Source: Saprospiraceae bacterium
GTDB taxonomy: Bacteria > Bacteroidota > Bacteroidia > Chitinophagales > Saprospiraceae
DNA length: 64,000 bases
Assembly (NCBI GenBank): GCA_016787575.1
Contig: JAEUUO010000036.1
Span: 1,266-65,265, forward strand
Direction: 5' to 3'
Program-made: the position numbers and the translations under genes
Part shown: piece by piece, positions 3,966-24,631 of the stretch
Position numbering within the stretch: the stretch's first letter is position 1
Layout: the number at the start of each line of letters is the position of its first letter
Notes under the pieces: generated by a model
Seen by the model: only the letters and a program-made list of their open reading frames with translations
What the model was told of the DNA's origin: nothing
Databases searched by the model: none

Positions 3966-3971
3966 TACTAC

Positions 3972-4103: not shown

Positions 4104-4119
4104 GCAATTTTAAGATATT

Positions 4120-6003: not shown

Positions 6004-6129
6004 CAACGGTTTTGTGTTATGGGGGCTGTCGTGCTTGGCAGAAACATTTGTGCAAGGCTCAACATTTGTACTTCGTATGAACAGTAGTGCTAAAAATCCC
6101 CCACAACGCAAAGCCGCAAACCGTTATGC
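5998..6129 (+). repeat. integron attC site (132-bp family)
   Basis: ACCTAAC...GTTATGC. ACCTAAC is the exact reverse complement of GTTAGGT at 4097-4103. The arms closely resemble the site at 3972-4103. The ORF stop TAA lies inside the opening core. Confidence 0.85.
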
Positions 6130-6166
6130 ACAAGTGTAGACAGACTTCAATTAAAATTAATAAGAC

Positions 6167-8308
6167 ATGAAAATCAGGCAAATCATAGATAAAATTGACG
6201 AGAACCAACTTTTTGTACCTGCATTCCAAAGAGAATATGTTTGGAAAAGGAATGATGCGAAAAATCTAATTTCTTCACTAATCAAAGATTATCCCACAGG
6301 AACAATGCTAACTTGGGAAACGAACAAACCACCAGAACTAAAAGGCAAATTCAAATATGATGAAAATAAAGGTGCGGTAAAAATAATTCTTGACGGACAA
6401 CAGCGCATTACGACACTATATATGCTAATGCAAGGTGACATTCCTCCATATTATAATGAAAATGAAATAGAAAACGATATTAGAAATTTATACGTAAATG
6501 TTGAATCGCTTGAACTGGAGTATTATAAAGTTAAAATGATGGAAAACAATCCACTTTGGGTGAATATTACAGATATTTTTAAAGGCAAAGTGAGAGAAAG
6601 AGATATAACAGATGAGTTAGAAAGAAGAAACAATGGGGAAAGATTACCAAGAGAAAGAGAAACACTTATTTCAAATAATATCAGATCAATTGAACGAATT
6701 GAAGACAGAGACTTTCTGGAACAGATAATTCCTGTAAAAGCAACAATTAAAGAAGCCATTGACATTTTTTATATTGTCAATGCAAGTGGGGTAAACTTGA
6801 CAGATGCAGAATTGGCCTTAGCTCAAATATCTGGCTATTGGCCAAATGCAAGAGATTTATTCAAGAAAAAATTACAGGAACTAGAAAAACAAGGCTGGGT
6901 TTTTAAACTGGATTTTATTGTGTATGCATTGTTGGCAGTTACACATAAAATGGGTTCCAAAATGGAAAAACTTCACACTGCAGATAACAAGGATAAGTTA
7001 ATGGCGGCATGGAAAAAACTTGACGATACTGTTCTCGACTACGTTTGCAATCTATTACAAAGTCAAGCATTTATTGACCATACTGATGAAATTAACTCAA
7101 TTTATGCACTTATTCCTTTAATTTCATACACTTTCAATAAACCTGACAGTAAACTGAATGAAGAAGAAATAAAGAAATCAATTAAGTGGTTTTACTATTC
7201 TCAAATACGATTTAGATATATAAGTCAGTTGCCGCAAAAATTAGATAAAGACATAGGTATAATTAATGACAATCTCAATCCCTTCGACACACTGCTTGCA
7301 CTAATCGACGAAGAACGGCCCTTAGAAATCAAGTCATCAGAATTTATTGGAAGAGACATACGCCACCCTTTATTTTCATTAATGAAATGGTATTTTAAAA
7401 GCAAAGGTGCTGTTTGTTTGGGGACCGGCCTGTCGCTTCGTAAAAATATGGGTAAAAAGTATAGTCTGGAAAGAGACCATATTTTCGCATACTCCGTTCT
7501 TAGGGATTCCGGTATTTACGACATGGAAAATCAATTCCATTACGCTATAGCACAAGAGATTACTAACCGTGCAATTCTAACATCAACTGAAAATCGGGAA
7601 AAGTCAGCTATGTTTGCTGATGTTTATTTATCTAATGTGAGAAAATTATTTCCAAATGCTTTGAAGTTACAAAGCATTCCAGAAGATGAAAATCTCTGGA
7701 AGGTAGAGAATTACGAAAGGTTCCTTGAAGCAAGAAGAGAAACGCTTGCTAAGGAATTGAATTATTTTCTACAAACTATTTCCATTGGGCAAGTAACAGT
7801 TTCAACATCTGTCGATTTGCTTGACATGATAGCATCTGGAGAGCATGGTTTTTTAGAATTCAAGTCAACTATGCGATGGAATTGGAAAGAGAACCGTCTT
7901 GACAAAAAGATGGAAGAGATCATTTTAAAAACTATTTCAGCATTTAGTAATGCCGAAGGTGGAAAACTGCTTATAGGAGTTACAGACGAAGGAGAAATAC
8001 TTGGACTCGAATCTGATTACAATACATTCAAGGAAGCTAATAAAGACCATTTTGAATTACACCTAAGAAATATAATCAACAATGCCTTTGGCAAAGAGTT
8101 CGGTGCAATTTATTTGAATGTCCGTTTTCCAATAGTGAATGATATAGAAATATGTGAAATAGATATCAAAGCGGCAAAGACACCTCTCTATTGTGAAATT
8201 GCTGACAAAAATGGAGCATCTCAAAAGAAATTTTATATCCGTAGTGGTAATTCATCGCAAGAGCTGGACATTGAAGAAACAGCGTCATACATTAAGAAAA
8301 GATTTTGA
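6167..8308 (+). CDS. GmrSD-like DUF262 (ParB-like) + His-Me/DUF1524-like nuclease fused to a C-terminal AlbA_2/Schlafen-like domain
   Basis: FQREYVW and DGQQR (6392-6406) are DUF262 motifs. ERDHIF...NRAILTSTENREKS is HNH-like. The C-terminal GEHGFLEFKS...FSNAEGGKLLIGVTDEGEILG resembles the AlbA_2/Schlafen fold. Confidence 0.7.
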   Translation: MKIRQIIDKIDENQLFVPAFQREYVWKRNDAKNLISSLIKDYPTGTMLTWETNKPPELKGKFKYDENKGAVKIILDGQQRITTLYMLMQGDIPPYYNENEIENDIRNLYVNVESLELEYYKVKMMENNPLWVNITDIFKGKVRERDITDELERRNNGERLPRERETLISNNIRSIERIEDRDFLEQIIPVKATIKEAIDIFYIVNASGVNLTDAELALAQISGYWPNARDLFKKKLQELEKQGWVFKLDFIVYALLAVTHKMGSKMEKLHTADNKDKLMAAWKKLDDTVLDYVCNLLQSQAFIDHTDEINSIYALIPLISYTFNKPDSKLNEEEIKKSIKWFYYSQIRFRYISQLPQKLDKDIGIINDNLNPFDTLLALIDEERPLEIKSSEFIGRDIRHPLFSLMKWYFKSKGAVCLGTGLSLRKNMGKKYSLERDHIFAYSVLRDSGIYDMENQFHYAIAQEITNRAILTSTENREKSAMFADVYLSNVRKLFPNALKLQSIPEDENLWKVENYERFLEARRETLAKELNYFLQTISIGQVTVSTSVDLLDMIASGEHGFLEFKSTMRWNWKENRLDKKMEEIILKTISAFSNAEGGKLLIGVTDEGEILGLESDYNTFKEANKDHFELHLRNIINNAFGKEFGAIYLNVRFPIVNDIEICEIDIKAAKTPLYCEIADKNGASQKKFYIRSGNSSQELDIEETASYIKKRF

Positions 8309-8345
8309 TGTTAAATCCGAAAGCGATTACAGCCAATAAACCTGT

Positions 8346-8477
8346 GCATAACAGCACCTACCCAAAAGACGGGGTTTTGTGCTCCAAAGACAGATTTGTG
8401 GTAAAAGGAATATTTGTACTATTAATCAACATTTGTGGTGAATCCCCCGCCCTTCGGGTAGCCGCAAAACGCTAGTG
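8346..8477 (+). repeat. integron attC site (132-bp family)
   Basis: GCATAAC...aatcccccgcccttcgggtagccgcaaaac-GCTAGTG. GCATAAC is the exact reverse complement of GTTATGC at 6123-6129. The closing core has C in place of the second T. Confidence 0.75.
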
Positions 8478-8487
8478 GCCATGCAAG

Positions 8488-8934
8488 ATGATAAAAGCTA
8501 TGCTTAATAGAATTGTGATCTCGATAATAATAATAATTATGTCATTAAGTTGCTCAAGGAATGATTATAGTGGAATTTATACACGACCGAGACATGTTAA
8601 ACTTTTAGGAGAAGGAATAACAATATTTAAAGACAGTTCGTATTCATACTTTTTTTCTGGCGGTGATTATCCAAGTATTATAGATAAAAAGGGGAATTAT
8701 AAAATGTTTAATAATAAACTAATCATATTTCATTCAGATAGCATAAGAGATTCAGAAATATCTCTTTACAGAGTGGATAGTTATTCCATAACTGATACTT
8801 ATTACATTCTAAAAATTGATCAAGAATGTATTTTGTATAACAATACAAAATGTTTTATGAAATTGAGGACGAACGGAAAGCTTGATGAATCGAAATATCA
8901 AAAAATCTGTAGAGCTGCAAAGCACGGTCACTAA
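8488..8934 (+). CDS. small hypothetical lipoprotein (cassette)
   Basis: Signal peptide with lipobox-like MSLSC. No recognisable domain. Confidence 0.5.
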   Translation: MIKAMLNRIVISIIIIIMSLSCSRNDYSGIYTRPRHVKLLGEGITIFKDSSYSYFFSGGDYPSIIDKKGNYKMFNNKLIIFHSDSIRDSEISLYRVDSYSITDTYYILKIDQECILYNNTKCFMKLRTNGKLDESKYQKICRAAKHGH

Positions 8935-9060
8935 CATGGTATACACTTAGTTCCACAAGAAAATTTAATTTTTCACTCTTGGCTTTCAATGTAAAATCTA
9001 TCTCCTTATCTTTGGCTTTCTCCCGTTAGCGGGACTGCGTGTATACCAAAACCGTTATGT
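8929..9060 (+). repeat. integron attC site (long AT-rich-centre family)
   Basis: CACTAAC-atggtatacac ... gggactgcgtgtatacc-aaaacc-GTTATGT. The opening core matches 6/7 the reverse complement of GCTAGTG at 8471-8477. Confidence 0.8.
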
Positions 9061-9079
9061 AGCATAAAAACATATAATA

Positions 9080-9727
9080 ATGAAAAGAAACACAATCAAT
9101 ATTCTGATTTCAGTATTATCTATATTTTCAGCTCAACGATTGCTTGCTCAAGAAAATAAATTCTTATTAAGTATTGAATACTCACCGAATTGTTCAAAAA
9201 TTACTGATGAAGTGGTTAATGAAAAATACAAATTAAGTCACAATGCATTAATAAGAATTGAATATAATACAAAAGGAAAGATTAAGCCATCATTAGGTTT
9301 AGGATATCTCAATACCGGTGAGTTAGAAAAATCTGAAATTGGAGGTCAGCAGGGAATTGAAGAAGTAAAATTCATTCATAATTATAATTATCTTTTCATT
9401 CCAATTGGGGTGATAATCAAATTTGGGAAGTTTTATTTCTTACCTGAAATTGGACTTGGAGTTAATATATCAAATAAAACAAGACAAATAACGAAATTTA
9501 CAAACGGTGAAACAGAAAAGGAAACGCGAGATGAAACCCTAATTTCTGGCGAATTTAATAAACTTTCAATCCCATTGTCATTAAGTGTCGCGAGGCAAAT
9601 TTCAATTGGTGGTAAATCATTTTCAACAGGATGCAAAGGATACTATGGAATTAACAAAGTTGTAAGAGATGTGCCTCGAAACAATCATTATTTTGGACTA
9701 GGGGTACTATTAGCAATGAATTTATAA
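9080..9727 (+). CDS. outer-membrane beta-barrel (porin-family-like) protein (cassette)
   Basis: Signal peptide ...FSAQRLLAQE, alternating beta-strand pattern, aromatic C-terminus. Confidence 0.5.
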   Translation: MKRNTINILISVLSIFSAQRLLAQENKFLLSIEYSPNCSKITDEVVNEKYKLSHNALIRIEYNTKGKIKPSLGLGYLNTGELEKSEIGGQQGIEEVKFIHNYNYLFIPIGVIIKFGKFYFLPEIGLGVNISNKTRQITKFTNGETEKETRDETLISGEFNKLSIPLSLSVARQISIGGKSFSTGCKGYYGINKVVRDVPRNNHYFGLGVLLAMNL

Positions 9728-9740
9728 ATGGAAATACGCT

Positions 9741-9808
9741 ACATAACAATACATATGACGATCAGCCTTCCCATTCGGTCAGGCAGCTGCATATGCAAAA
9801 CGTTATGC
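9741..9808 (+). repeat. integron attC site (68 bp, classical short form)
   Basis: ACATAAC-aatacatatgacgatcagcc...ggtcaggcagctgcatatgcaaaac-GTTATGC. ACATAAC is the exact reverse complement of GTTATGT at 9054-9060. Confidence 0.8.
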
Positions 9809-9893
9809 GCCACTTAGATAAACCAATCAAATGTTTAAACAAAATAAACTTAGAATCAAATCGTTTTGATTTTCTAATCAATTTAATAAAGAT

Positions 9894-10259
9894 ATGAAAA
9901 CAAATTACCAGCCTTACTTGATTGTAATAATATTACTCGGATTCGGATTTCTTTTCTTAAGACCTATACCAATTCCAAAAGAACAAGATTGTTTAATAAT
10001 TAAAGGAATTGTCAGTGGGATATACGAAGGTGGCACTCATGATGTTATCTTCAAATTAAAAGATCAAGTAAAACAATTTTATGTAAACCGAGGAACAGAG
10101 TACGGTCTTGATATAAAAAAAATGCAAAATGAATTGATAGATAAAGAGATCGTAATAAAATATCCAAATTATTGGTTATTGACGCTTCCAGGCAATGTTA
10201 TGATTCATGCTTCCAAAATCGAATTCAATGAAAGAACTTTATACACACAATTAGATTAA
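9894..10259 (+). CDS. hypothetical membrane-anchored protein (cassette)
   Basis: N-terminal TM helix. No recognisable domain. Confidence 0.45.
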   Translation: MKTNYQPYLIVIILLGFGFLFLRPIPIPKEQDCLIIKGIVSGIYEGGTHDVIFKLKDQVKQFYVNRGTEYGLDIKKMQNELIDKEIVIKYPNYWLLTLPGNVMIHASKIEFNERTLYTQLD

Positions 10260-10277
10260 TAAAGCGGCGCATAACAG

Positions 10278-11992
10278 GATGTGAAAAAACTACTTTCAAT
10301 TTAATTCAACAATTTCTTGTATATTTTAATTTGATATTGTATTTTTATGTTATATGAATCATATAACAGGTATGCCAAGATTACAAATGCAGATGAGTTC
10401 ATTGGAAGATTCCATTGACCAGGAAAACCCGGTAAGATTTATCGATGCATTTGTAGATCAATTAGATTTATTAAAGATTGGATTTGAAGTAAAAACGTTA
10501 AAAACAGAAGGCCGCCCTAGTTTTGAAGCTTCTACCTTACTTAAAATATATTTATATGGTTACTTAAATGGTTTGCGGAGTAGCCGCAGACTAGAAAGTG
10601 AATGTATTAGAAATATTGAACTACAATGGTTAACCTTGGGATTACAGCCAAATTATCATACCATCTCTGATTTTAGAAAAGACAATCCAAAAGCTTTAAA
10701 AAATGTTTTCAAATTATTTGTTTCATTTCTTAAAGACATTGATTTGATTGGTAGTCAAATTATTGCCATTGATGGGACTAAGTCAAGAGCTCACAACAGC
10801 AAAAAGAATAATTACAATCAAAAGAAAATTGATAGGCACTTAGCTTATATTGAGGAAAAGAGTAATGAATATCTTATTCAATTGGAGGATAATGATATAA
10901 AGGATGATTTAACAAAAGTCTTGAATATCCAGGAAAAAATAAATAGACTTAAACAGAATAAAATTAAGTATGAAGTTCTGCAAGAAAAACTAATAGATTC
11001 TGACGAACCACAAATAAGCACCACGGATCCAGACTCCCGTGCCCTGCTTGTCCATGGACAGGTTGTTGAAGTTTGTTACAATATCCAAACTGCAGTTGAT
11101 GATAAACATAAACTAGTTGTGGCAACTCATACGATTAATCGGAATGACCGTAATGCACTCACAGATATTGCATTAGAAGTAAAAGCAAATTTGAATGCGG
11201 ATGGTTTTGTGGCATTACTGGATAAAGGATATCACAATGGTAGAGAAATTCAGCAATGTACGGATGCCAATATTGATACAATTGCAGCCCCATCACTTAT
11301 TGTCAATAGCAATACATATGGAACAACACCGGAATATGTGGTAACTAATTTTGTTTATAATTATAAACTTGATACGTACACTTGCCCGCAAGGCAAAACA
11401 TTGAACACAACTGGAACATGGCACACTAAAACAAAGGATAACCATTCAGGTTATAAATTTAAAAAATACAGAACTCCTGAGTGCAAAACATGTCCAGCAA
11501 AACACCTTTGCACCAGAAGAGCGAGCGGAGGACGAGAAATAGAAAGAAGTGAATTTGCAACCGCAGTAGAAGCAAACAATACGCGCTACAAAGAAAATGC
11601 CGCATTGTATCGTAAAAGACAAGAAATTAACGAACATATCTTCGGAACAATAAAAAGGAAATGGGGATATTACTACACCAATCTAAAAGGACTAGATAAA
11701 GTCAACGGGGAGCACAGTTTAATTATGCTGGCTTATAATATTAAACGATGCTTTGCATTACCTGGCGTTCCAGAACTTACTGAGAAATTAAAAAATTGGG
11801 CTTCTCCTTACAAGAAAGACCCTGCTTTTCTTCAAAATTGGATTGATTTAAGACCTTTAGAACTCCTGGTGTTTAATCGGACTATTACGCTCTTTAAAAA
11901 ATGCATCGCATGTAACTCATAAAACTGGTTTATATGAGAACATACAATGAATTTTTAAAATTTTGAATATAAAAAATGGTATTTTCACACTC
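10278..11992 (+). mobile_element. IS1182-family (IS5-like DDE) insertion sequence, about 1.7 kb
   Basis: Imperfect terminal inverted repeats GATGTGAAAAAAC... and ...GTATTTTCACACTC, with similarity extending about 45 bp inward. Carries a single transposase ORF. Boundaries are approximate. Confidence 0.65.
10354..11922 (+). CDS. IS1182-family DDE transposase
   Basis: N-terminal FIDAFVDQLDL...RPSF...LLKIYLYGYLNGLRSSRRLE...TISDFRK (DUF772-type). DDE region AIDGTK...LLDKGY. C-terminal cysteine cluster and ...EHIFGTIKR. Confidence 0.85.
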   Translation: MNHITGMPRLQMQMSSLEDSIDQENPVRFIDAFVDQLDLLKIGFEVKTLKTEGRPSFEASTLLKIYLYGYLNGLRSSRRLESECIRNIELQWLTLGLQPNYHTISDFRKDNPKALKNVFKLFVSFLKDIDLIGSQIIAIDGTKSRAHNSKKNNYNQKKIDRHLAYIEEKSNEYLIQLEDNDIKDDLTKVLNIQEKINRLKQNKIKYEVLQEKLIDSDEPQISTTDPDSRALLVHGQVVEVCYNIQTAVDDKHKLVVATHTINRNDRNALTDIALEVKANLNADGFVALLDKGYHNGREIQQCTDANIDTIAAPSLIVNSNTYGTTPEYVVTNFVYNYKLDTYTCPQGKTLNTTGTWHTKTKDNHSGYKFKKYRTPECKTCPAKHLCTRRASGGREIERSEFATAVEANNTRYKENAALYRKRQEINEHIFGTIKRKWGYYYTNLKGLDKVNGEHSLIMLAYNIKRCFALPGVPELTEKLKNWASPYKKDPAFLQNWIDLRPLELLVFNRTITLFKKCIACNS

Positions 11993-12058
11993 TGACGTTT
12001 ATGGTAAGGCGAGAGTTAGTATTCTTTTGAATTTATTCAAACAAAATTTATATCAATA

Positions 12059-15000
12059 ATGAAAGAAGTTAGACAAGACGACATAGAGATTTATTTAGCA
12101 AATGCAGAAAAGCCAATAGCATATTCAAATTATTCTTATCCCATTAATAAGCTAGATGATAGAGTATATGAAGTTTTGACATATTCAATTTTCAAAAAAA
12201 GAATTGCCACAAATGATGCAGGAATTAGTGAGAAGCATTCTAATGTGATTCTGATGCAAGGTATTGGTGAAAAAGGGATGGATTGTATACTTACCTATGA
12301 GAATAGAATAAATGGAGTTATTCAATGTAAAAAGTATTCTAAAAATTTGACTGACACTCAAATATTAACGGAACTTATAAAGTTTGCAATTCACTTTTCT
12401 ATTGATAGTACAAGATTTACTCAAAGCAACAAATTAAAATATTTCTTTGCAACTTCAACAGGTTATACTGCAAAAGCAATTCAACTTATTGAGCTGATTA
12501 AAGACAAATCATTCCAGAGTAAATATGATTATATAAAAATAGTTACATCTATTATTGGAAAATATAAAGAGTTCAAGAATCTGAAATTAATAAGGTTGCA
12601 AGCTGAAATACCAAATATTTTGTCTAATTTTGAATATGAACTAATAAGACCTGATGATTATAACCTTTGGATAAATACCTATCCTGAAATTATTAATACA
12701 TTTTTTGAAGTAAAAAAAGTTACGGATAATTCTCTGATAGAAGAGAAAGGGAATGAGATTTTGAATAAAATTGAAACTCTGTTTTCAGTAAAAGAATCAG
12801 AAGTTATTGATTCTTTTATCAAGAAATACAAAGCTGTTGCTGTTGAGAAGCTAAATCTTGTAAATTTTATTGGTTTTGATTTACACAGATATAGGCAAAA
12901 ACCAGCAGAAATAACATTGACAGAATTATTTGTTATGCCTTCTTTTATTCAAAGAATAAGCGATAAAAATAAAAAAGTTCTAAGTATTGTTGATAAAGAC
13001 TTAAAAGTTGCAAATGTTTTTAAGTCGGATAAAAATATAATCCTTCTTGGAGATCCAGGTGCTGGTAAATCATTACTTGTTAAATTTATTATAGTACAAA
13101 TTTTAAATGGAGCTGAAGATAAAATTGGTCTAAAGCAATTTGGCCATGCCATTCCATTTAGAATAGAATTAAGGAAATACAATGAGGTTCGAGAAAGTAA
13201 AAGTGTTATTGAGTATTTGTCCGATCTACTTGATAAAGAGTATCAAACTGCTATTGGTATTGATATGTTAAGTAAATTAATTCATAATTATGAGTCAATT
13301 GTCTTTTTTGATGGATTAGATGAGATATTTAATGCAACCCATAAAAATAAAATGAAAGAATGCATTGAATTGTTTAGTATTAACTTTCCGAAGTCAAAAA
13401 GTGTAGTAACCTCTAGATTTATTGGTTATCATGATATTAATTTTAATCCTAAGAAGTTTGATGAATTTGCCATTCAGCGTTTTAATCAAAGTCAAATAGA
13501 AGAATTAATAGCAAAATTTTATGCGACTCAAATTTCAAATATTGATAAAAGGCGCATATCAATAGTAAATTGCATTTCGCAAATCGAAAAAGAAGTTGAC
13601 AACGATTTAAAGAGCAACCCACTTATAATGACTCTGATTCTAATTCTTACGAGTAACAATATTATTATTCCGGATTCTAAGCTAGAAATTTATGAAGCAT
13701 GTACCAAGACATTAGTAGATAGTATTGATACTAGAGAGAAAGAATTGAAGATAGAAATGCCAGTAAAAAATAAGCGACTCACATTTGCTCACTTAGCATA
13801 TTGGCAATATGAATCACTTAGTAAGAATTCAAAAATTTCCTATGATAGAGCTGTTAAAGCAATATCAGATTTTCTAATTGATAAAAAAGAAGTTTTAGAT
13901 ATTACAGAAGCAGAGGATAAGGCCAAAAAATTCCTGGATTATGCTGAAAAGCGATCAATATACTTTGAAGATAACTTCACTCATAAAACATTTTTAGAAT
14001 ATTATACCGCAGACTACCTGTATATAAATTTTTTTACGAAAGCAAATGATCAAGCAAGAAAGAAGGTAATTTCTATTATCACTAATTATCTTCCAAAGGC
14101 ATTTTGGTATATCGTTTTTGAGTTGCTATTAACTAGAATAGATAAAGAACAGGCAGACTCTGAATTGTTGGATGAAATATTTTCAAAGCAAATTGAATCC
14201 AATTCTCTTAATGTTTTTTATTTTTTAATTAGTAATTTAACTAAATTTATAAATATTAGTAATGAAATAAAATCGAAAATAATTAAGAAAACTATATTGC
14301 TATGTATCAAAGGAGAAAAGGTATCAGAACTTAGACATGGTTATCATTTTGAAGAAAATAGTTTATTAGCGAAGATAAATTACTTACAAAAGGATGATAG
14401 TTTATTCGATATATTCCAAGCAGCTATCTATGAATTTGAAGATGATGGCCTAGATGATAGAGATTTAATTGAATTTTACATATTTTATTATGAGGTAGTC
14501 TCCTTAAATTTTAAAATGAAGTATGAAAATTCTTTAAAAATTAAAAACAAAAGGAAGCTTAAGGAGCTTAGTTATAAAGACCTTCACTTGTTCTGTCAAT
14601 CTATCGTTCCAAGAAAAAACAAAGATGAAGTGATTTCCATTAATGTGCTTTTGGATCAGATAGAACATTTTGGCACTAAAAGTTTATTTAAAAATTTAAA
14701 ATTTCGTCATCGAGATAATGTATTTAGAATTGATACATTTGATATTTATCTTATGAGTGTAATTGAAAATTTAGATTATGAGGCATTTCAGGAAGATTAT
14801 TTTAAACTTTTAAAAGCTGGTTTAAGACATGACCAGATATTGGATCATGTAAAATCTTCAAAATTATTTTTCTTTCATAGAGGAGAAGGTTTTGAGAAAC
14901 TTCTTAATTTCTTTTTAAAATCTAACAATAAGGAACTAGATGACATTATACTTGGGCTTGTGAGAAATATTGGTGAAATGAGAATTACTTACGAAAAATT

Positions 15001-15061
15001 TAGAGAGACCAATTCTAATTCAAAGCTTAGAATCATAGACAAAATATTTAAGAGGAAATAG
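12059..15061 (+). CDS. NACHT-family STAND NTPase with N-terminal Mrr-like PD-(D/E)xK nuclease domain and large helical C-terminal region (Avs/bNACHT-like)
   Basis: YEVLTYSIF...GEKGMDCIL...GVIQCKKY (D...QxK nuclease motif). Walker A LLGDPGAGKS (13049-13072). Walker B IVFFDGLDE. About 550 aa of C-terminal alpha-helical sequence. Confidence 0.75.
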   Translation: MKEVRQDDIEIYLANAEKPIAYSNYSYPINKLDDRVYEVLTYSIFKKRIATNDAGISEKHSNVILMQGIGEKGMDCILTYENRINGVIQCKKYSKNLTDTQILTELIKFAIHFSIDSTRFTQSNKLKYFFATSTGYTAKAIQLIELIKDKSFQSKYDYIKIVTSIIGKYKEFKNLKLIRLQAEIPNILSNFEYELIRPDDYNLWINTYPEIINTFFEVKKVTDNSLIEEKGNEILNKIETLFSVKESEVIDSFIKKYKAVAVEKLNLVNFIGFDLHRYRQKPAEITLTELFVMPSFIQRISDKNKKVLSIVDKDLKVANVFKSDKNIILLGDPGAGKSLLVKFIIVQILNGAEDKIGLKQFGHAIPFRIELRKYNEVRESKSVIEYLSDLLDKEYQTAIGIDMLSKLIHNYESIVFFDGLDEIFNATHKNKMKECIELFSINFPKSKSVVTSRFIGYHDINFNPKKFDEFAIQRFNQSQIEELIAKFYATQISNIDKRRISIVNCISQIEKEVDNDLKSNPLIMTLILILTSNNIIIPDSKLEIYEACTKTLVDSIDTREKELKIEMPVKNKRLTFAHLAYWQYESLSKNSKISYDRAVKAISDFLIDKKEVLDITEAEDKAKKFLDYAEKRSIYFEDNFTHKTFLEYYTADYLYINFFTKANDQARKKVISIITNYLPKAFWYIVFELLLTRIDKEQADSELLDEIFSKQIESNSLNVFYFLISNLTKFINISNEIKSKIIKKTILLCIKGEKVSELRHGYHFEENSLLAKINYLQKDDSLFDIFQAAIYEFEDDGLDDRDLIEFYIFYYEVVSLNFKMKYENSLKIKNKRKLKELSYKDLHLFCQSIVPRKNKDEVISINVLLDQIEHFGTKSLFKNLKFRHRDNVFRIDTFDIYLMSVIENLDYEAFQEDYFKLLKAGLRHDQILDHVKSSKLFFFHRGEGFEKLLNFFLKSNNKELDDIILGLVRNIGEMRITYEKFRETNSNSKLRIIDKIFKRK

Positions 15062-15067
15062 CCCTGA

Positions 15068-15198
15068 TATCAACTGAGTACTTACGATCATGGCGCAAAT
15101 AAGCTTTAATTTTCACTTTTAGCTTTTAATGAAATAATATTTCTTACTTTTGGATTTGGTGCTAGTGGCGGCCCGTCGCAATTGCCTGGCCGTTATAG
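15068..15198 (+). repeat. integron attC site (long AT-rich-centre family); opening core uncertain
   Basis: ...TATCAAC-tgag-TACTTAC-gatcatggcgc ... ggcggcccgtcgcaattgcctggcc-GTTATAG. The centre is typical (aattttcacttttagc...atttcttacttttgg). Confidence 0.6.
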
Positions 15199-15223
15199 GT
15201 CATAATAGCAAATTAGAATTAAA

Positions 15224-15829
15224 TTGAGAAATGTAATTTTATTTATACTAATTATTTTGAATTGTAACTGTAGGATAGAATCTAATTATGAAGAAGGACT
15301 TAAAAATTGTTTAAATAATTTTGCTTGAGCAAAGAAACTCGGTTCAAATGCAAGCATGTCGATTGGGCCAGATTGTTTGATTGGTGCTAGAGTTCCTGAT
15401 TTTAAGGTAGAACTTATTGATGGAAGTAAATATTCAAACGAAAACCTAAAGGGTAAAGTTAGTGTTATTAATTTTTGGTTTATTGACTGTCCGCCTTGTG
15501 TTGCAGAAATTAATGGCTTAAATAGTTTGGTTGAATTATTTGGAAAAGATAAAATAAATTATGTTGCATTTGGAAGAGATCCAAAAAGTGATATAGAATC
15601 ATTTTTAAAAAATCATGTTTGGAATTATAACCACATTTCTGGTGAAAATAATATTATTGATACTATTTTTAAACTGTATTGGGGTTATCCAGCAACTTTT
15701 ATTTTGAATAAACAAACAGAAATAATTTATACTGCTTCTGGTGGCAAATCAGATTCAACTGCAAGCGAAGAATTACTAAATAAACTTATTCCGATCCTAA
15801 AGAATGCAGAGGAAAATGACGACCTATAA
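15224..15829 (+). pseudogene. TlpA/thioredoxin-like lipoprotein reading frame interrupted by an in-frame TGA (15326-15328)
   Basis: TTG at 15224 opens LRNVILFILIILNCNC... (signal plus lipobox) in the same frame as the 15356 ORF. A single TGA separates them. Confidence 0.45.
15356..15829 (+). CDS. thioredoxin-fold thiol:disulfide oxidoreductase (TlpA/ResA-like), as tracked from the internal ATG
   Basis: VPDFKVELIDG...LKGKVSVINFWFIDCPPCVAE contains a CxxC motif. Confidence 0.7.
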   Translation: MSIGPDCLIGARVPDFKVELIDGSKYSNENLKGKVSVINFWFIDCPPCVAEINGLNSLVELFGKDKINYVAFGRDPKSDIESFLKNHVWNYNHISGENNIIDTIFKLYWGYPATFILNKQTEIIYTASGGKSDSTASEELLNKLIPILKNAEENDDL

Positions 15830-15953
15830 CTTCGTACTTGCGATAATGCCGTCAAGCACCAGATATTTTCACTTTTGGCATGAATTGAAAAACTATTTTC
15901 TATATTTGGTATAATTGGAATGGTTGCACATCGCAAGTATTTCATCGTTGACT
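15824..15953 (+). repeat. integron attC site
   Basis: CTATAAC-ttcgtacttgcgat...atcgcaagtatttcatc-GTTGACT. CTATAAC is the exact reverse complement of GTTATAG at 15192-15198. The ORF stop lies inside the core. Confidence 0.8.
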
Positions 15954-15978
15954 GCATTTGTAAAACATAATTTAGACA

Positions 15979-16896
15979 ATGGGAAGAACAAGTAAACGAC
16001 TTTTAATTGGAGCATCAAGTCCTGTTGGATATTTCTATGAATATGATAGAGTGAAAATTCATGGAAAACCAGCCCCTATTTTGGAAACACCATTAAGCTA
16101 CTGTTTGCTTTATGACGAAATCTGGTTTCTTAGTAGAAAGGTATGTCCTCACAATATGGAGAATTTAAGTTTTGTCCATTTTGTTGACGAAGACTTAATG
16201 CCCAAAGGGCTTCCTTTAGATTTCGCAAAAGACCAAAATCTCAATCCTTTTGGAGAATTCCCTTGGGAATCATGGAAAGATGTGATTAAAAGGACAATTG
16301 GTCTAAGATGGAGTTATGACAACCATTCAAGTAATATGCAATTTGGGGAACTGCGAATGACACCAACACCTGGAAATTATTTGAATTTGCTAGTAGATAG
16401 ATATGTTGCAGCAATGCATGAAATGGATTTAGTAGAAAACTCTGCAAATTTGTTTTGGAGTCAAGAAGTTGACAATGTACAATTGAAATTAAGTATAAGT
16501 GAAAAACTATTAACATCATCAATCGTATCTTTGCAAACTATTAATGGGCCATGGCATCCTGAAATACATAATTTAAGAGAAGATAGTTTATTAAAAAAGT
16601 ATCGTCAGAAAATACAAGACGTCTCAGTTAATGAAATTAATGACGTTGATAAAAGAATTGGTGAATTGTCAAAAGAGTTTGAAAAAATATCACTAAAAAT
16701 AGTTTCTGAGCAATTTGAAACTACTGGACTTTTTACAGGAACAGCAATGTTTTTAGTGGGATTAATACCTACAATTGGAAATATAATTGGTGGTGGGCAA
16801 GTTCTAAATGATATCTATTCAAACATAAAATTAAGAGAACAAAAAGGCTGGGTTGGATTCTTGGGTAGAGCTAAAAGTTCATTAACAGAATTGTGA
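15979..16896 (+). CDS. hypothetical protein with C-terminal glycine-zipper TM helix (cassette)
   Basis: No recognisable domain. C-terminal GLFTGTAMFLVGLIPTIGNIIGGG. Confidence 0.5.
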   Translation: MGRTSKRLLIGASSPVGYFYEYDRVKIHGKPAPILETPLSYCLLYDEIWFLSRKVCPHNMENLSFVHFVDEDLMPKGLPLDFAKDQNLNPFGEFPWESWKDVIKRTIGLRWSYDNHSSNMQFGELRMTPTPGNYLNLLVDRYVAAMHEMDLVENSANLFWSQEVDNVQLKLSISEKLLTSSIVSLQTINGPWHPEIHNLREDSLLKKYRQKIQDVSVNEINDVDKRIGELSKEFEKISLKIVSEQFETTGLFTGTAMFLVGLIPTIGNIIGGGQVLNDIYSNIKLREQKGWVGFLGRAKSSLTEL

Positions 16897-16906
16897 AAAT
16901 AACTGC

Positions 16907-17036
16907 AGTCAACAATGTACTTACAGACATGCCATCTAAAAATTTAGTTTTCACTTTTGACTTAGATTGAAAATACAATTTCTTACTTTTGCCTTCTGGA
17001 CAAGTAGCGGCGCGGCGCAAGTACATAGCGTTATGA
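16907..17036 (+). repeat. integron attC site
   Basis: AGTCAAC-aatgtacttac...gcgcaagtacatagc-GTTATGA. AGTCAAC is the exact reverse complement of GTTGACT at 15947-15953. Confidence 0.8.
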
Positions 17037-17716
17037 CGACAAACCAAACTTCAATATCAACTTATCACGAATATATTCTTGAAGCAATTTATGCTTTGCG
17101 ATACGGACTAGCTTATTATGAAATTGCAAAGCAAATTCCAGCTGACACAGGTTCGGACCAATCAATGCTAATTGCAGAAATAAATAGCCGTTATTCATTT
17201 CTAATGATTTCAAACTCGCTTGAATCAGCAGCAAACGCCTTACTTCTTAGTCTAAACCTAGACAAAGAATATTACGCAGAATTAGAACGGACAAGCACTT
17301 TAGTTAAGTTTAAAATATTCTGTGACTTTTTAGGCAAGCGCCTTGACCAAGGTGATATTAAGTTTGGTAGAATTAAGGATATAATCAACTGTAGAAATGA
17401 ATTTGTTCATCCTAAACCAAGAAAAGCAACTTACCGAATAGACAATTTTAATTCAGAAATTAAGTTTGAGGTCAAATCGACAAAAAACCGAAACTATCCG
17501 GCCTATTTTAGTGAAATAAAGCCTACCCATGTATTGACAGCTTTGGAAGACACTTTGATTTTTATTTCTTGGATTTGTTTTGACATTTGTAAGTTAGAGA
17601 TTCAAGATGGAGCCTTTAAGCTTGGTTTTGGTTCGTACGGTAGCACCGGAGACATAGACAATATTGGTGAAGATTACGAAATTAAATTTGATAAACGGAC
17701 TTTTGGACAGCAATGA
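17033..17716 (+). CDS. hypothetical alpha-helical protein with HEPN-type Rx4H motif (candidate RNase; cassette)
   Basis: CRNEFVHPK (R121-H126, nt 17393-17410) in a predicted helical context. Start moved to the ATG that overlaps the attC closing core (gttATGa). Confidence 0.5.
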   Translation: MTTNQTSISTYHEYILEAIYALRYGLAYYEIAKQIPADTGSDQSMLIAEINSRYSFLMISNSLESAANALLLSLNLDKEYYAELERTSTLVKFKIFCDFLGKRLDQGDIKFGRIKDIINCRNEFVHPKPRKATYRIDNFNSEIKFEVKSTKNRNYPAYFSEIKPTHVLTALEDTLIFISWICFDICKLEIQDGAFKLGFGSYGSTGDIDNIGEDYEIKFDKRTFGQQ

Positions 17717-17864
17717 GTAATATTGGCATTAAGACACGTTTGGCGTCATGTGGATTGACATGGTTACATTCAAGTTCAGTTTTCCAAGTTGGCTTTTGTG
17801 CTGGTTTGTCAGCTTTGTGCTCCGAATATCCGCCGAATGCCAAACGCCAAAACGTTCGTTATCG
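17689..17864 (+). repeat. integron attC site (two possible registers for the opening core: 17689 or 17727)
   Basis: TGATAAAC-ggacttttgg...ttggcatt (or GCATTAAG-acacgtttggcg) pairs with aatgccaaacgccaaaacgttc-GTTATCG at 17836-17864. Confidence 0.55.
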
Positions 17865-17879
17865 GTAATAATTTGTAAA

Positions 17880-18401
17880 ATGGAATTTATAACTAATGAC
17901 AATCCATGGATAAATGGATATCCTATACATGAATCATATTCATTATTAGACTTAAAGGCATTTCATTTAGTTTCAATTTTAAATGCCTCTATGGTTTCAA
18001 ATAATATTGAGGACTTGAATACTTTTCTTATAAAAGAATATGAAATGTCAGAGGTGTCAAGAATTTTATTAGAAATTGCTGTTCAAATTAGAAGTCAAAT
18101 TGATCAAGATTCTCCAATATTTGAAGGAAGAAAATATAATCCCAATTCAATAACAGGAAAGTTAACGATTAACCCTCAGAGTAATTTATGCAAGACAAAA
18201 GATTTATCTTTTAGAGAAGCATGTAATAAAATTATTCATGCTAAACATATTAACTTTGACTTATCAAACGCAATCTCAATTAAGGAATATGATTCTATCA
18301 ACCCAATTATTTATTTGTATGGTGATTTAAATGGAAATGAATGGAAATCTCAATTAGATATATTGAAATTTATTTCAATATTAATTTGTATTAAAAACTA
18401 A
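17880..18401 (+). CDS. hypothetical protein (first gene of an apparent two-gene cassette)
   Basis: Start moved to ATG 17880, downstream of the attC. Contains FREACNKIIHAKH. No confident domain. Confidence 0.45.
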   Translation: MEFITNDNPWINGYPIHESYSLLDLKAFHLVSILNASMVSNNIEDLNTFLIKEYEMSEVSRILLEIAVQIRSQIDQDSPIFEGRKYNPNSITGKLTINPQSNLCKTKDLSFREACNKIIHAKHINFDLSNAISIKEYDSINPIIYLYGDLNGNEWKSQLDILKFISILICIKN

Positions 18402-18506
18402 GTGCACATAGCATCGCATTCACACTATAGCGCAAATATCATGAAGACATTTATCTTGGCGGGCTTGGAAAACATATTTTACATTTAGCTTAAAACCAAG
18501 TGAGGT

Positions 18507-19052
18507 ATGGCGTCAATAGCTGACCGTTTTTTTCATTTAATTTTGAAACCATTTATTTATTCTTTTTTTATTTTTGGATTTATGAACATCTGTTCTGCAG
18601 CTGATTCAATTGATAATGTATTCCTGAAAGATAGTGTTATAAAGGGTGTTTTATCATTTCCAAACTTCAGTTGGGGTAGTTATTATGGCGGGGTAGATAG
18701 TATAATAATCAGGGCAGATAATGAACTCGATAGATTGGAGCAGACCGATTCAGCTTTGTTGACTCCAAATGATGTTGAAACACTTAACATTTATGGAAGG
18801 CTACGCAAAACAAAGCTACTATACAGACCCTTTTTCCATTTGCAAACAGACAGTTCTGAATATATAGTCTATATTGATTCTCTAGCATACGAAAATATCA
18901 ATATTTATAATAAAAAGGAACTCGAGAAAGAAAATTCTATCGTAGAAATTGAATTGATTGGCGAATTTATTAATTTGGGGTCCTTCGATGTAATTAAATG
19001 CAACAAGTTATTGCGCGTTAGGAAAATGATAAAACAAAGCAAGGGTCGATAA
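18507..19052 (+). CDS. hypothetical exported or membrane-anchored protein (second gene of the cassette)
   Basis: Hydrophobic N-terminus ...FIYSFFIFGFMNICSA. Confidence 0.45.
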   Translation: MASIADRFFHLILKPFIYSFFIFGFMNICSAADSIDNVFLKDSVIKGVLSFPNFSWGSYYGGVDSIIIRADNELDRLEQTDSALLTPNDVETLNIYGRLRKTKLLYRPFFHLQTDSSEYIVYIDSLAYENINIYNKKELEKENSIVEIELIGEFINLGSFDVIKCNKLLRVRKMIKQSKGR

Positions 19053-19170
19053 GAAATTTTTCACTCAGTCCTACATGAAAGTTTAATATTTTATTTTGCT
19101 TTTAAACATAATATATTTAACGTTGAATTCCACCTTTAGCAGGACTACATGTATACCATAGTTGTTGTCG
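19047..19170 (+). repeat. integron attC site
   Basis: CGATAAG ... aggactacatgtatacc-ata-GTTGTCG. The opening core matches 6/7 the reverse complement of GTTATCG at 17858-17864. Confidence 0.6.
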
Positions 19171-19237
19171 ATTTCAAATTGATTTCTTAAATAATGAATT
19201 CATATTGACAGGCTAAAATATAGTAAATTGAATTAAA

Positions 19238-19558
19238 ATGAAGTTTGACGTAGAAGATCTTGGATGGCTCTTATTAACTATATGGATAATTCAAACGATT
19301 TTTTATTTAGGGTATTTAGTATTTCACGACACATTCAATTTTGAATTTAGAAAAATCTTGTATATTTCAGTGGCCACCAGCCTGATTCTTTCATTAATAA
19401 TACAATTTGGGGGATTTTATAAAAGCATTCAAGCTGCTACTTGTGGGACTGAAAAATTTAATCCCATTGGAATCATTGGAGTGTATGGAAGTATTGGAAG
19501 TTTGATAATTTATATTATATTTTCAATCTTAAAAAAAGTTATCGATAAACTAACATAA
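19238..19558 (+). CDS. small multi-pass membrane protein (last cassette)
   Basis: Three hydrophobic segments. No recognisable domain. Confidence 0.45.
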   Translation: MKFDVEDLGWLLLTIWIIQTIFYLGYLVFHDTFNFEFRKILYISVATSLILSLIIQFGGFYKSIQAATCGTEKFNPIGIIGVYGSIGSLIIYIIFSILKKVIDKLT

Positions 19559-19695
19559 AAATCCAGCCGTTTAGATTATAAACAAGTAGTCTCTCAAGAA
19601 TTTTATTATTTCACCTTAAGCTTTACTAATAATCTATTTTTTTTGGCCTTAACTTCCATTATTAACAAGACTGCGTGTATACCAAAACGACTCTA
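19543..19695 (+). repeat. terminal, degenerate attC-like site (array end)
   Basis: CGATAAAC... and the conserved right arm caagactgcgtgtataccaaaac are present, but CGACTCT follows where a GTTRRRY core is expected. Confidence 0.45.
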
Positions 19696-20062
19696 TCCTA
19701 ATTCAAATACCCATTTTTAAAACCAATTGGCTATACTCAGAAATTTCTGAATTATTTGATTGCTTGTTCCTCTTATAATATTAAAGACATTTAAGCATTT
19801 AAATTTTTTATAGCATACTGACTTCAAAAGACCTTTAGCTAAACCTTTCTTAAGCCTCCCTTCCATACTAATTTTCCCTATTTTTATGCTCCACTTTAGC
19901 CTACCACAAGGTAAAAGCTATTCCATTTAATATGTTGTTGCTTGCTTGGATATTTTTAATCCATTTAGTAACTTTATGCTGCAATCATCGATATTCTTTT
20001 ACGTTATAGACAAGCATGCCTTGCCTTAATAAAGAAGACGTGTATCAAATAAATCTGCTAGT

Positions 20063-24609: not shown

Positions 24610-24617
24610 TATTTTTG
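24610..24617 (+). promoter_or_regulatory. Bacteroidota -7 box TAnnTTTG
   Basis: TATTTTTG lies 15 nt upstream of the ATG at 24632. Confidence 0.45.
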
Positions 24618-24631
24618 CAGCAAATTCAACT

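What the first reader, a model, noticed from the sequence alone, without database searches (positions are those of the whole stretch)
12059..15061. 1000-aa Mrr-like nuclease-NACHT-helical sensor protein carried as a mobile cassette
It has an N-terminal PD-(D/E)xK signature (GMDCIL...IQCKKY) of the Mrr type, NACHT Walker A/B motifs (GDPGAGKS, FFDGLDE), and about 550 aa of helical C-terminus with no recognisable repeats. This is the effector-NTPase-sensor layout of Avs/bNACHT anti-phage STAND proteins. At about 3.1 kb it is a very large integron cassette. The C-terminal sensor has no similarity that I can recognise, so it may have a novel trigger.
Basis: partly seen in the sequence, partly recalled or inferred. 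Interest (0 to 1): 0.65.

Follow-up and report, generated by a model that had tools for sequence, protein, structure and literature searches.

The report
Nuclease-NACHT immune sensor in cassette array
This is an intact 1000-residue single-protein bacterial immune receptor (a DNA-cutting domain, a NACHT switch and a fast-evolving helical sensor) sitting in an integron-like gene-cassette array of a wastewater Bacteroidota bacterium; it is an untested member of a known kind of anti-phage protein, not a new kind.

Summary

- **N-terminus (aa ~30-150):** an Mrr_cat-type PD-(D/E)xK nuclease. E38, D75, Q89-x-K91 and E105 are the same in essentially all of the 66 homologues that share this domain. D75 aligns with the experimentally essential D48 of bNACHT25.
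- **aa ~311-660:** a true NACHT module. It passes the Pfam threshold, its best structural matches are NLRC4, NOD2 and NLRP3, and Walker A, Walker B, sensor-1 and the winged-helix His are invariant.
- **Sensor size:** the orphan region is about 240-340 aa, not 550. The rest of the C-terminal half is the helical part of NACHT.
- **Sensor properties:** confidently modelled as all-alpha, no match in PDB, BFVD or Pfam, the most variable part of the protein, and confined to this family.
- **Family:** mostly Bacteroidota, single-gene, with swapped N-terminal domains (SMEK_N, or one with no Pfam match).

The best reading is a bNACHT/Avs-like abortive-infection sensor-nuclease with an unknown trigger.

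"Mobile cassette" is only partly right. The gene lies in a genuine attC cassette array that also carries SIR2 and GmrSD-like cassettes. However, no integrase is nearby, an IS sits in the upstream attC, the gene's own attC has lost its hairpin, and the gene is always linked to the next cassette.

Verdict: a new member of a known kind, of moderate interest.

The parts
11998..15192 (+). Cassette-like unit carrying the gene (3195 nt), from TT of the upstream R' core (G11997|TT) to G15192 of the downstream R' core
   Evidence: Strain variants are identical through the IS end plus '(A/C)CG' and diverge at G|TT. The downstream cassette starts GTTATAGGTC at 15192 and ends with its exact reverse complement at 15821-15830.
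12059..15061 (+). ORF, 1000 aa: Mrr-like nuclease, NACHT, helical C-terminus
12146..12508 (+). Mrr_cat-type PD-(D/E)xK nuclease core (aa 30-150). Candidate catalytic residues E38, D75 (12281-12283), Q89-C-K91 (12323-12331), E105, K108
   Evidence: 30 of 32 family N-termini match Pfam Mrr_cat. The residues are the same in essentially all of the 66 homologues sharing the domain. AF2 topology is alpha-beta-beta-beta-alpha-beta. D75 aligns with bNACHT25 D48 and with the GID...VQAK motif of E. coli Mrr. PADLOC LmuA nuclease-domain match, E=3e-6.
12509..12988 (+). Helical linker / pre-NACHT region (aa 151-310), with conserved FFEIKKVTDN, Y257, NFIG and P294
12989..14038 (+). NACHT module (NBD-HD1-WHD, aa 311-660): Walker A 13049-13072, Walker B 13301-13324, sensor-1 TSR 13409-13417, WHD FTHKTF 13976-13993
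   Evidence: Pfam NACHT above gathering score. Foldseek top matches NLRC4, NOD2, NLRP3 at E 1e-10 to 1e-8. Invariant columns. hhalign to bNACHT25, aa 315-690 against 204-546, probability 96.5%.
14039..14338 (+). Conserved helical extension after the winged helix (aa 661-760; invariant W683, E688, L689, D695)
14339..15058 (+). Variable all-alpha C-terminal domain (aa 761-1000), the presumed sensor
   Evidence: Lowest conservation in the protein (mean pairwise identity 0.26 against 0.51-0.57 for NACHT, measured on aa 765-1000). AF2 pLDDT 93. No match with E<0.06 in PDB or BFVD. phmmer against 1.84 billion representatives gives 21 hits, all of this family or fragments.
15066..15198 (+). Degenerate attC at the 3' end of the unit (R'' GATATCAAC 15066-15074; R' GTTATAGG from 15192)
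   Evidence: Aligns with the neighbouring attC sites at 15822 and 16901. The bottom strand does not form the R/L stem, z=0.01, whereas the neighbours do.
10275..11994 (+). IS element (DDE transposase 10354-11922; imperfect terminal inverted repeats) lying between R'' (10266-10275) and R' (11997-12004) of the upstream attC, 64 nt before the gene's ATG
   Evidence: Pfam DUF772, DDE_Tnp_1 and DDE_Tnp_1_6. Inverted-repeat alignment. Present upstream of the gene in every contig long enough to show it.

Best explanation
The gene encodes a stand-alone STAND (NACHT-clade) immune receptor of the bNACHT/Avs type. In the resting state the protein is a closed, nucleotide-bound monomer. The variable C-terminal helical domain recognises an infection cue, either a phage protein or a phage-induced change in a host factor. 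The NACHT module then exchanges or binds NTP and oligomerises. Oligomerisation brings the N-terminal Mrr-like PD-(D/E)xK domains together and activates them. DNA is cut without sequence specificity, which stops phage replication at the cost of the cell (abortive infection). What is shown here: the three-part architecture, the integrity and conservation of the nuclease and NTPase catalytic residues, the hypervariability and lack of relatives of the C-terminal domain, the single-gene nature of the unit, and its placement among other defence cassettes. What is inferred by analogy with bNACHT25/32 and Avs proteins: activation by oligomerisation, DNA as the substrate, the abortive outcome, and a phage-derived trigger.
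For: Architecture: Pfam NACHT above threshold. The full-length AF2 model (pLDDT 84) matches NLRC4, NOD2 and NLRP3 best. Walker A, Walker B, sensor-1 Arg and WHD His are invariant in 108 sequences. Nuclease: 30 of 32 N-termini match Mrr_cat. E38, G73, D75, Q89, K91, E105 and K108 are the same in essentially all of the 66 homologues sharing the domain, down to about 30% identity. D75 aligns with D48 of bNACHT25; the D48A mutation abolishes that protein's defence and DNA degradation (PMC12169576). Sensor: the C-terminal domain is the least conserved region, has no PDB, BFVD or Pfam relative, and occurs only in this family. Modularity: sister proteins keep the NACHT and C-terminal parts but carry SMEK_N or an N-terminal domain with no Pfam match. 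Single-gene unit: no neighbour family recurs in more than 9 of 60 loci. Context: the same array holds a SIR2 cassette (PADLOC 6e-10) and a GmrSD/Schlafen HEC-05 cassette (5e-46). Strain variants carry HsdM, HinfI and HigBA cassettes. The Pontibacter homologue lies between hsdM and hsdR, and another lies beside a 1259-aa SNF2/DEAD helicase. Precedent: REase-NACHT proteins defend against phage (Kibby et al., bioRxiv 10.1101/2022.07.19.500537). The gene is kept intact and near-identical in at least 20 wastewater or sludge metagenome runs.
Against: There is no experimental evidence for this family. No PADLOC Avs or bNACHT model and no NCBIfam antiphage model matches beyond the P-loop. Outside the NACHT module there is no detectable homology to the validated bNACHT25, and bNACHT20 aligns over the nucleotide-binding domain only. 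All ten immediate neighbours annotated in eight homologue loci are housekeeping genes (RNR, groEL, dnaK, peptidases, TonB receptors), so defence-island association is modest. The catalytic triad has Q in place of D/E (QxK). That is typical of Mrr but unproven as active here. The trigger is unknown.
Confidence: 0.75

Rival explanations
1. It is a type IV / Mrr-like NTP-dependent restriction enzyme that acts directly on foreign (for example modified) DNA. The C-terminal domain would bind DNA and the NACHT module would act as the NTPase regulator, with no protein trigger and no abortive infection.
For: The Mrr_cat domain is the catalytic domain of type IV enzymes. The Pontibacter homologue sits inside a type I R-M locus. 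The neighbouring cassette is GmrSD-like.
Against: NACHT/STAND modules are switches, not translocases, and no winged-helix, SRA or other DNA-reader domain was found. The C-terminal domain has net charge 0. Its hypervariability fits protein recognition under arms-race pressure better than DNA-modification reading. Effector swapping to the non-nuclease SMEK_N argues that the NACHT and C-terminal chassis is a generic sensor.
Confidence: 0.1
2. It is a selfish addiction or stabilisation module: a latent toxin whose loss or perturbation kills the cell. It would stabilise the cassette array or mobile DNA, as TA cassettes do in chromosomal integrons, rather than defend against phage.
For: Chromosomal cassette arrays carry TA cassettes (HigBA in a strain variant). 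The gene is never seen separated from the next cassette. It has a potentially lethal nuclease.
Against: There is no antitoxin partner and no conserved neighbour. The homologue loci examined outside this organism show no cassette-array context. The architecture is that of regulated sensors.
Confidence: 0.05
3. It is a non-immune STAND regulator or a decaying passenger gene with no current function.
For: Its attC is degenerate and an IS lies upstream. One homologue (Chryseobacterium sp. GP-SGM7) is split into two ORFs.
Against: The ORF is intact and its sampled k-mers are 99-100% present in at least 20 runs from 10 studies, 2015-2025. All catalytic motifs are invariant. There is no HTH or other output domain typical of STAND transcription regulators.
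Confidence: 0.05

Closest known systems
bNACHT25 / bNACHT32 (E. coli; NACHT clade 6 of Kibby et al.; WP_001702659.1)
   Same: The layout is the same: an N-terminal PD-(D/E)xK DNase, a NACHT module and an all-helical C-terminal domain, in a single gene. The NACHT modules align (hhalign probability 96.5%, E=9e-10, 315 columns). The nuclease motifs EKGxD...xCK align, with D75 matching the essential D48. The winged-helix His motifs correspond (FTHKTFLEYYTA against FLHRSFMEYFYA).
   Different: This protein is 1000 aa against 752 aa. Identity is only about 20%, and only in NACHT. The C-terminal domain (NCH1 in bNACHT25) shows no detectable similarity. There is a 160-aa helical linker between nuclease and NACHT. 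The host phylum differs. Sensing through DnaJ is known only for bNACHT25.
'Mrr_cat+NACHT' / 'REase+NACHT' proteins listed in NACHT clade 2 of Kibby et al. Table S1 (for example Hymenobacter WP_157567192.1)
   Same: The annotated architecture is the same and the domain coordinates are similar (Mrr_cat ~18-133, NACHT ~240-737). A Bacteroidota member is listed.
   Different: None of the six NCBI accessions checked for this family is in that table. The clade-2 proteins listed as tested there (bNACHT20, 27, 30, 37) have other effectors. bNACHT20 aligns with this family only over the nucleotide-binding domain.
Avs (AVAST) families, including those with Mrr or Cap4 nuclease effectors
   Same: Three-part effector-STAND-sensor logic. 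Nuclease effectors are activated by oligomerisation after the C-terminal domain binds a phage protein (Gao et al. 2022, from my own knowledge; PMC13581612).
   Different: No PADLOC Avs model matches. The NTPase is NACHT-clade. The sensor is not TPR-like and has no structural match to solved Avs structures in the PDB.
Integron cassettes that encode phage defence (BRiCs in mobile integrons; chromosomal integron 'biobanks')
   Same: A defence-type gene packaged as a single-ORF unit between attC sites, in an array with other defence cassettes (bioRxiv 10.1101/2024.07.02.601719).
   Different: This is a cassette array lacking an integrase (CALIN) in a Bacteroidota genome. The unit is 3.2 kb, far larger than typical cassettes. 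Its attC looks non-functional and an IS occupies the upstream attC.
Lamassu LmuA effector (PADLOC PDLC03852)
   Same: The N-terminal nuclease domain matches at E=3.2e-6 over aa 59-201.
   Different: This is domain-level similarity only. There is no LmuB/SMC partner, and the rest of the protein is NACHT.

Membership tests
NACHT clade of STAND NTPases | Pfam NACHT match above the gathering score | tested here: met
   33.5 bits against a 26.7-bit cut-off, aa 327-488
NACHT clade of STAND NTPases | Walker A GxxxxGK[ST], Walker B with extra acidic residues (hhhhDGhDE), and a sensor-1 Arg | tested here: met
   G331-S338, D418/D421/E422 and R453 are invariant in 108 sequences
NACHT clade of STAND NTPases | Winged-helix domain with the conserved His that contacts the nucleotide (FxHxxxQEF-type motif), and an NBD-HD1-WHD fold like animal NLRs | tested here: met
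   FTHKTFLEY with invariant H642. Foldseek top matches are NLRC4, NOD2 and NLRP3 at E 1e-10 to 1e-8, with 560-690 aligned columns.
Mrr_cat / PD-(D/E)xK nuclease | alpha-beta-beta-beta-alpha-beta core with D at the start of beta2 and (D/E/Q)xK in beta3, conserved across homologues | tested here: met
   AF2 elements H34-50, E62-66, E76-80, E83-91, H99-115, E127-132. D75 and Q89-x-K91 are invariant. The alignment places them on GID...VQAK of E. coli Mrr.
Mrr_cat / PD-(D/E)xK nuclease | Significant profile match to Pfam Mrr_cat | tested here: inconclusive
   The query alone scores 15-19 bits, below the 21-bit cut-off. However, 30 of 32 family members match at E<=0.1, best 3.5e-6. There is no PDB sequence match, and the N-terminal domain was not modelled separately for a fold search.
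bNACHT anti-phage proteins (Kibby et al.) | Bacterial NACHT with an N-terminal effector and a C-terminal sensor in one polypeptide | tested here: met
bNACHT anti-phage proteins (Kibby et al.) | Demonstrated protection against phage | not testable with these tools
bNACHT anti-phage proteins (Kibby et al.) | Assignment to a numbered NACHT clade (for example 2 or 6) | tested here: inconclusive
   hhalign to bNACHT25 (clade 6) gives E=9e-10 over 315 columns and to bNACHT20 (clade 2) gives E=1e-8 over 190 columns. Neither is close, and the tree was not reproducible here.
bNACHT25-type (REase-NACHT-NCH1) | C-terminal NCH1 domain homologous to that of bNACHT25 | tested here: not met
   No alignment beyond residue ~690 of the query or 546 of bNACHT25, by BLASTP or hhalign
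Avs1-5 (PADLOC models) | Match to an Avs family HMM | tested here: not met
   The PADLOC scan at E<=1 returns only LmuA (nuclease domain), mad8 (P-loop) and PDC-M68A
EruA / Avs10 (NCBIfam NF058535) | Full-length equivalog match (cut-off 1000 bits) | tested here: not met
   21 bits over 29 residues around the P-loop
Integron gene cassette | Single ORF, co-oriented with its neighbours, bounded by attC-type sites with AAC...GTT cores, with the 5' junction at G|TT | tested here: met
   Array of at least 12 units. Six consecutive ORFs are tiled by exact 10-mer 5'/3' complements. Strain variants diverge exactly at G11997|TT.
Integron gene cassette | Own attC folds (bottom strand) into the R/L stem, and the cassette's 5' end is complementary to its R'' | tested here: not met
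   15064-15201 folds at -10.5 kcal/mol, z=0.01, with no terminal stem, whereas all five neighbouring sites folded pair their termini as expected (z from -0.1 to -2.5). 5' GTTTATGGTA has no complement at R'' GATATCAAC.
Integron gene cassette | Integron integrase (IntI) adjacent to the array | tested here: not met
   No Phage_integrase match in the genes called in the 8.8 kb upstream of the window (L004) or in the window ORFs scanned. The array is CALIN-like.
Integron gene cassette | Presence/absence polymorphism of the cassette between strains | tested here: inconclusive
   The slot after the IS holds NACHT, Por_Secre_tail or HigBA in different contigs. On the 3' side, all contigs read that carry the AhpC-type protein show a gene ending 295 nt upstream of it, as NACHT does in the window. 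Assembly joins across the IS cannot be excluded.

The most novel reading that the evidence does not exclude
The family is an unnamed Avs/bNACHT-type receptor family. Its family-specific C-terminal domain, which has no structural relative, recognises a trigger not covered by the characterised Avs and bNACHT sensors, for instance a conserved protein of Bacteroidota phages or a perturbed host factor. Integron-type recombination can bank a 3.2-kb single-gene immune receptor next to other defence cassettes in an environmental Bacteroidota genome. A further possibility comes from the Pontibacter hsdM-NACHT-hsdR arrangement, which has no hsdS: some members might guard a type I R-M system in the way PrrC does.
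Probability: 0.3. Interest if true: 0.55.

Novelty: new member of a known kind. Interest (0 to 1): 0.4.

Why it matters
If it is confirmed as anti-phage, it would add a Bacteroidota-centred nuclease-NACHT family to the bacterial NLR-like receptors, with a sensor fold absent from PDB and BFVD. That would give a handle on phage sensing in a phylum for which no tested STAND system came up in the papers read here. It also shows that attC cassette arrays outside Proteobacteria stock large single-gene immune receptors alongside SIR2 and GmrSD-type cassettes. The architecture and the logic are already known, so the gain is incremental unless the trigger proves unusual.

Tried and rejected
- **Solved relatives by sequence:** profile searches of the full family and of the N-terminal domain against PDB sequences gave only P-loop noise.
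- **Named defence families:** PADLOC and NCBIfam gave no Avs, bNACHT or EruA membership.
- **Sensor fold:** Foldseek of the C-terminal model against PDB and BFVD returned only generic alpha-solenoids, E>=0.06 and TM<=0.3.
- **Clade assignment:** comparison with bNACHT25 and bNACHT20 was inconclusive. Six family accessions are not in Kibby Table S1. The supplements of PMC13581612 are not held.
- **Conserved operon partner:** none was found in 60 loci.
- **Transposase gene as a cassette with its own attC sites:** rejected. Its flanks are inverted repeats, not direct repeats, and do not fold as attC.
- **Strict RYYYAAC/GTTRRRY scan:** it found few sites. The 5'/3' complementarity rule worked better.
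- **Covariance model of attC:** abandoned, because two attC subfamilies aligned poorly.
- **Sigma-70 promoter scan:** uninformative for Bacteroidota.
- **Rfam:** nothing in the window.
Full report
**Observation.** The window holds an ATG-initiated ORF at 12059-15061 on the + strand, 1000 aa, in a region of 26-29% G+C against 32-41% for most of the window. Pfam gives NACHT above its gathering score (aa 327-488, 33.5 against 26.7 bits) and a sub-threshold Mrr_cat match (aa 62-143).

**Family.** A search of 5.8 billion proteins returned 158 relatives. About 70 of them are full-length (~1000 aa, 30-73% identity). They come mostly from Bacteroidota (Saprospiraceae, Pontibacter, Chryseobacterium, Mucilaginibacter, Siphonobacter, Crocinitomicaceae). 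Where a source names them at all, the name is 'NACHT domain-containing protein', 'hypothetical protein' or a generic automatic label. In 185,579 species-representative genomes, 352 loci encode a relative. About 14 of the 78 loci kept have the full architecture, including some Ignavibacteriota, Psychromonas and a Nitrospiria. The window's gene has 99-100% of its sampled k-mers in at least 20 activated-sludge, wastewater or bioreactor runs from 10 studies, 2015-2025. It is therefore a stable, intact gene of a widespread sludge bacterium. The closest species-representative genome is a Saprospiraceae MAG at 67% identity.

**N-terminal domain.**
- In the 66 aligned homologues that share this domain, E38, G73, D75, Q89, K91, E105 and K108 are the same in essentially all, even where the domain is only about 30% identical. 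The exceptions are two truncated proteins and one with two substitutions.
- Scanned one by one, 30 of 32 N-termini match Pfam Mrr_cat (best E=3.5e-6). A few also match Mrr_cat_2 and RRG7.
- The AF2 model has the canonical alpha-beta-beta-beta-alpha-beta core, with D75 at the start of beta2 and Q89-x-K91 at the end of beta3.
- Profile alignment puts these residues on the GID...VQAK motif of E. coli Mrr.
- It also puts them on EKGAD48...VICK of bNACHT25. In bNACHT25, D48A abolishes both defence and DNA degradation (PMC12169576).
- PADLOC's only match of note is the nuclease domain of a Lamassu LmuA model (E=3e-6).

The nuclease looks active.

**NACHT module.** The full-length AF2 model (pLDDT 84, pTM 0.69) finds NLRC4, NOD2 and NLRP3 as its best PDB matches (E 1e-10 to 1e-8, 560-690 aligned columns). 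Walker A, Walker B (D418, D421, E422), sensor-1 R453 and the winged-helix motif FTHKTFLEY (H642) are invariant across 108 sequences. So residues ~311-660 are NBD-HD1-WHD. The 'helical C-terminus' proper starts only after that.

**C-terminal region.**
- Residues 661-760 are a conserved helical extension (W683, E688, L689 and D695 invariant).
- Residues ~761-1000 are the least conserved part of the protein. Mean pairwise identity is 0.26, against 0.51-0.57 for NACHT and 0.43 for the nuclease.
- Modelled on their own, aa 661-1000 give a very confident all-alpha structure (pLDDT 93, pTM 0.89).
- That structure has no significant match in the PDB (best E=0.077, TM<=0.3, generic solenoids) or among viral predicted structures. 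It has no Pfam match.
- A phmmer search of aa 701-1000 against 1.84 billion cluster representatives finds 21 proteins. All are members of this family or fragments of them.
- The net charge of aa 761-1000 is 0.

This is what one expects of a protein-recognising sensor under diversifying pressure.

**Modularity and autonomy.** Relatives ranked below about P0070 keep the NACHT and C-terminal chassis but have a different N-terminus. This is either a SMEK_N domain (E=1e-31 to 1e-37) or a ~240-aa domain with no Pfam match. Such effector swapping is characteristic of STAND defence proteins. Clustering all ORFs within 10 kb of 60 family loci showed no recurrent partner; the most frequent neighbour family occurs in 9 of 60 loci. 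The unit is a single gene.

**Context of homologues.** The Pontibacter mangrovi homologue lies between hsdM and hsdR, with no hsdS in sight. Another homologue lies beside a 1259-aa SNF2/DEAD helicase. All ten immediate neighbours annotated in eight other homologue loci are housekeeping genes, including ribonucleotide reductase, groEL, dnaK, peptidases and a TonB receptor. Defence-island evidence outside this window is therefore modest.

**Is it a mobile integron cassette?**
- *Evidence for a cassette array.* The window from its start to about 19.7 kb is an array of co-oriented single-ORF units separated by 70-145-nt imperfect palindromes ending ...AAC and GTT.... Six consecutive units show the diagnostic property of attC recombination: the first 10 nt of the unit (GTTxxxxxxx) is the exact reverse complement of the R'' that follows its ORF. 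An example is 15192 GTTATAGGTC paired with 15821-15830 GACCTATAAC. Two more units show it with one mismatch. The attC bottom strands of the neighbours fold with the expected terminal R/L stems.
- *No integrase.* The array continues upstream of the window to L004:~5713, where it abuts unrelated genes. No tyrosine recombinase was found among the genes called in the 8.8 kb upstream of the window or among the window ORFs scanned. It is a cluster of attC sites lacking an integrase (CALIN).
- *Defence content.* The array includes a SIR2 cassette (PADLOC 6e-10) and a GmrSD_N-Schlafen cassette matching HEC-05 (5e-46). Strain variants in other sludge metagenomes carry HsdM, HinfI and HigBA cassettes.
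- *5' boundary of the focal unit.* A ~1.7-kb IS (DDE transposase; terminal inverted repeats; 10275-11994) lies between the R'' (10266-10275) and R' (11997-12004) of the upstream attC. In other contigs the same [121-aa cassette + IS] is followed by a Por_Secre_tail or a HigBA cassette. The sequences are identical through the IS end plus '(A/C)CG' and diverge exactly at G|TT. That places the 5' boundary at 11997/11998 and gives a unit of 3195 nt.
- *Evidence against current mobility.* The unit's own attC (15066-15198) aligns with its neighbours but has lost L-box complementarity and does not fold (z=0.01). The 5' end is not complementary to its R''. All contigs read that carry the next cassette's AhpC-type protein have a gene ending 295 nt upstream of it, the same spacing as NACHT in the window.

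The gene is thus cassette-borne in origin and context, but present-day mobility is doubtful.

**Comparison with what is known.**
- REase-NACHT proteins are established anti-phage systems. bNACHT25 and bNACHT32 (clade 6; REase-NACHT-NCH1) degrade DNA on activation and need the nuclease Asp.
- I fetched bNACHT25 (L003:3001-5256) for a direct comparison. Only the NACHT modules align (hhalign probability 96.5%, E=9e-10; about 20% identity). The nuclease aligns weakly at the motif level. The C-terminal domains do not align.
- Table S1 of Kibby et al. lists 'Mrr_cat+NACHT' and 'REase+NACHT' architectures in clade 2, including a Hymenobacter protein. The architecture is therefore already catalogued. 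However, six accessions of this family are not in that table. bNACHT20 (clade 2; L114) aligns over the NBD only. Clade membership stays open.
- No PADLOC Avs model and no NCBIfam antiphage model matches.
- Defence genes in integron cassettes are also known.

**Verdict.** The most likely function is a single-protein abortive-infection sensor-nuclease of the bNACHT/Avs kind (confidence about 0.75). It is a new, untested member of a known kind, with a sensor domain that has no recognisable relative and an unknown trigger. It lies in a Bacteroidota CALIN array as an unusually large and probably immobilised cassette. Interest is moderate (0.4).

Noticed in passing
window 10266-12004 (IS 10275-11994); L018, L019, L020, L024: An IS (DDE transposase with DUF772, DDE_Tnp_1 and DDE_Tnp_1_6) lies between the R'' and R' cores of an attC with 0 and 2 nt to spare, so the whole attC stem-loop is replaced by the IS and its inverted repeats. 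In other metagenome contigs the same left flank plus IS is followed by different cassettes (Por_Secre_tail, HigBA), and these diverge exactly at G|TT. It is unclear whether such an IS-filled attC still recombines, whether these are IS-IS recombinants, or whether they are assembly joins.
   Followed up: partly
window 1-19700 and L004:5713-11390: A cassette array of at least 17 units with two attC subfamilies and no integron integrase nearby (CALIN), in a low-GC Bacteroidota (Saprospiraceae-like) genome from activated sludge. Cassette content varies between strains and samples.
   Followed up: partly
window 6167-8308: A 713-aa cassette protein with GmrSD_N and Schlafen AlbA_2 domains that matches PADLOC HEC-05 (E=5e-46). 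It is probably a type IV restriction-like defence cassette (2.2 kb).
   Followed up: partly
window 1173-2288: A 371-aa cassette protein matching PADLOC SIR2 models (E=6e-10; Pfam SIR2 only weakly). It is a candidate NADase defence effector without an obvious partner.
   Followed up: partly
window 4120-6003: A 627-aa cassette protein made of seven DUF4379 treble-clef zinc-finger repeats (204-207-nt DNA periodicity). Function unknown.
   Followed up: no
L002 / L036 (Pontibacter mangrovi VFRQ01000001.1): The homologue sits between hsdM and hsdR, and no hsdS gene is visible. The arrangement recalls prrC inside a type I R-M locus, or the gene may have replaced hsdS.
   Followed up: no
L037:10001-12991 (Chryseobacterium sp. 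GP-SGM7): The homologue is split into two ORFs (607 and 385 aa), which suggests a frameshifted pseudogene. It lies directly after groEL. In L043 the homologue lies directly after dnaK.
   Followed up: no
L004:7652-8695: A RelA_SpoT-domain (small alarmone synthetase-like) cassette lies upstream of the window, in the same array.
   Followed up: no
window 20063-26179: Immediately after the array there is a small biosynthetic-looking cluster: an AurF-like N-oxygenase, KAS III, an AMP-binding enzyme, an NAD-dependent epimerase and a double SDR. A 14-nt tandem repeat (AGTCTCT-type) follows at 26185-26233.
   Followed up: no
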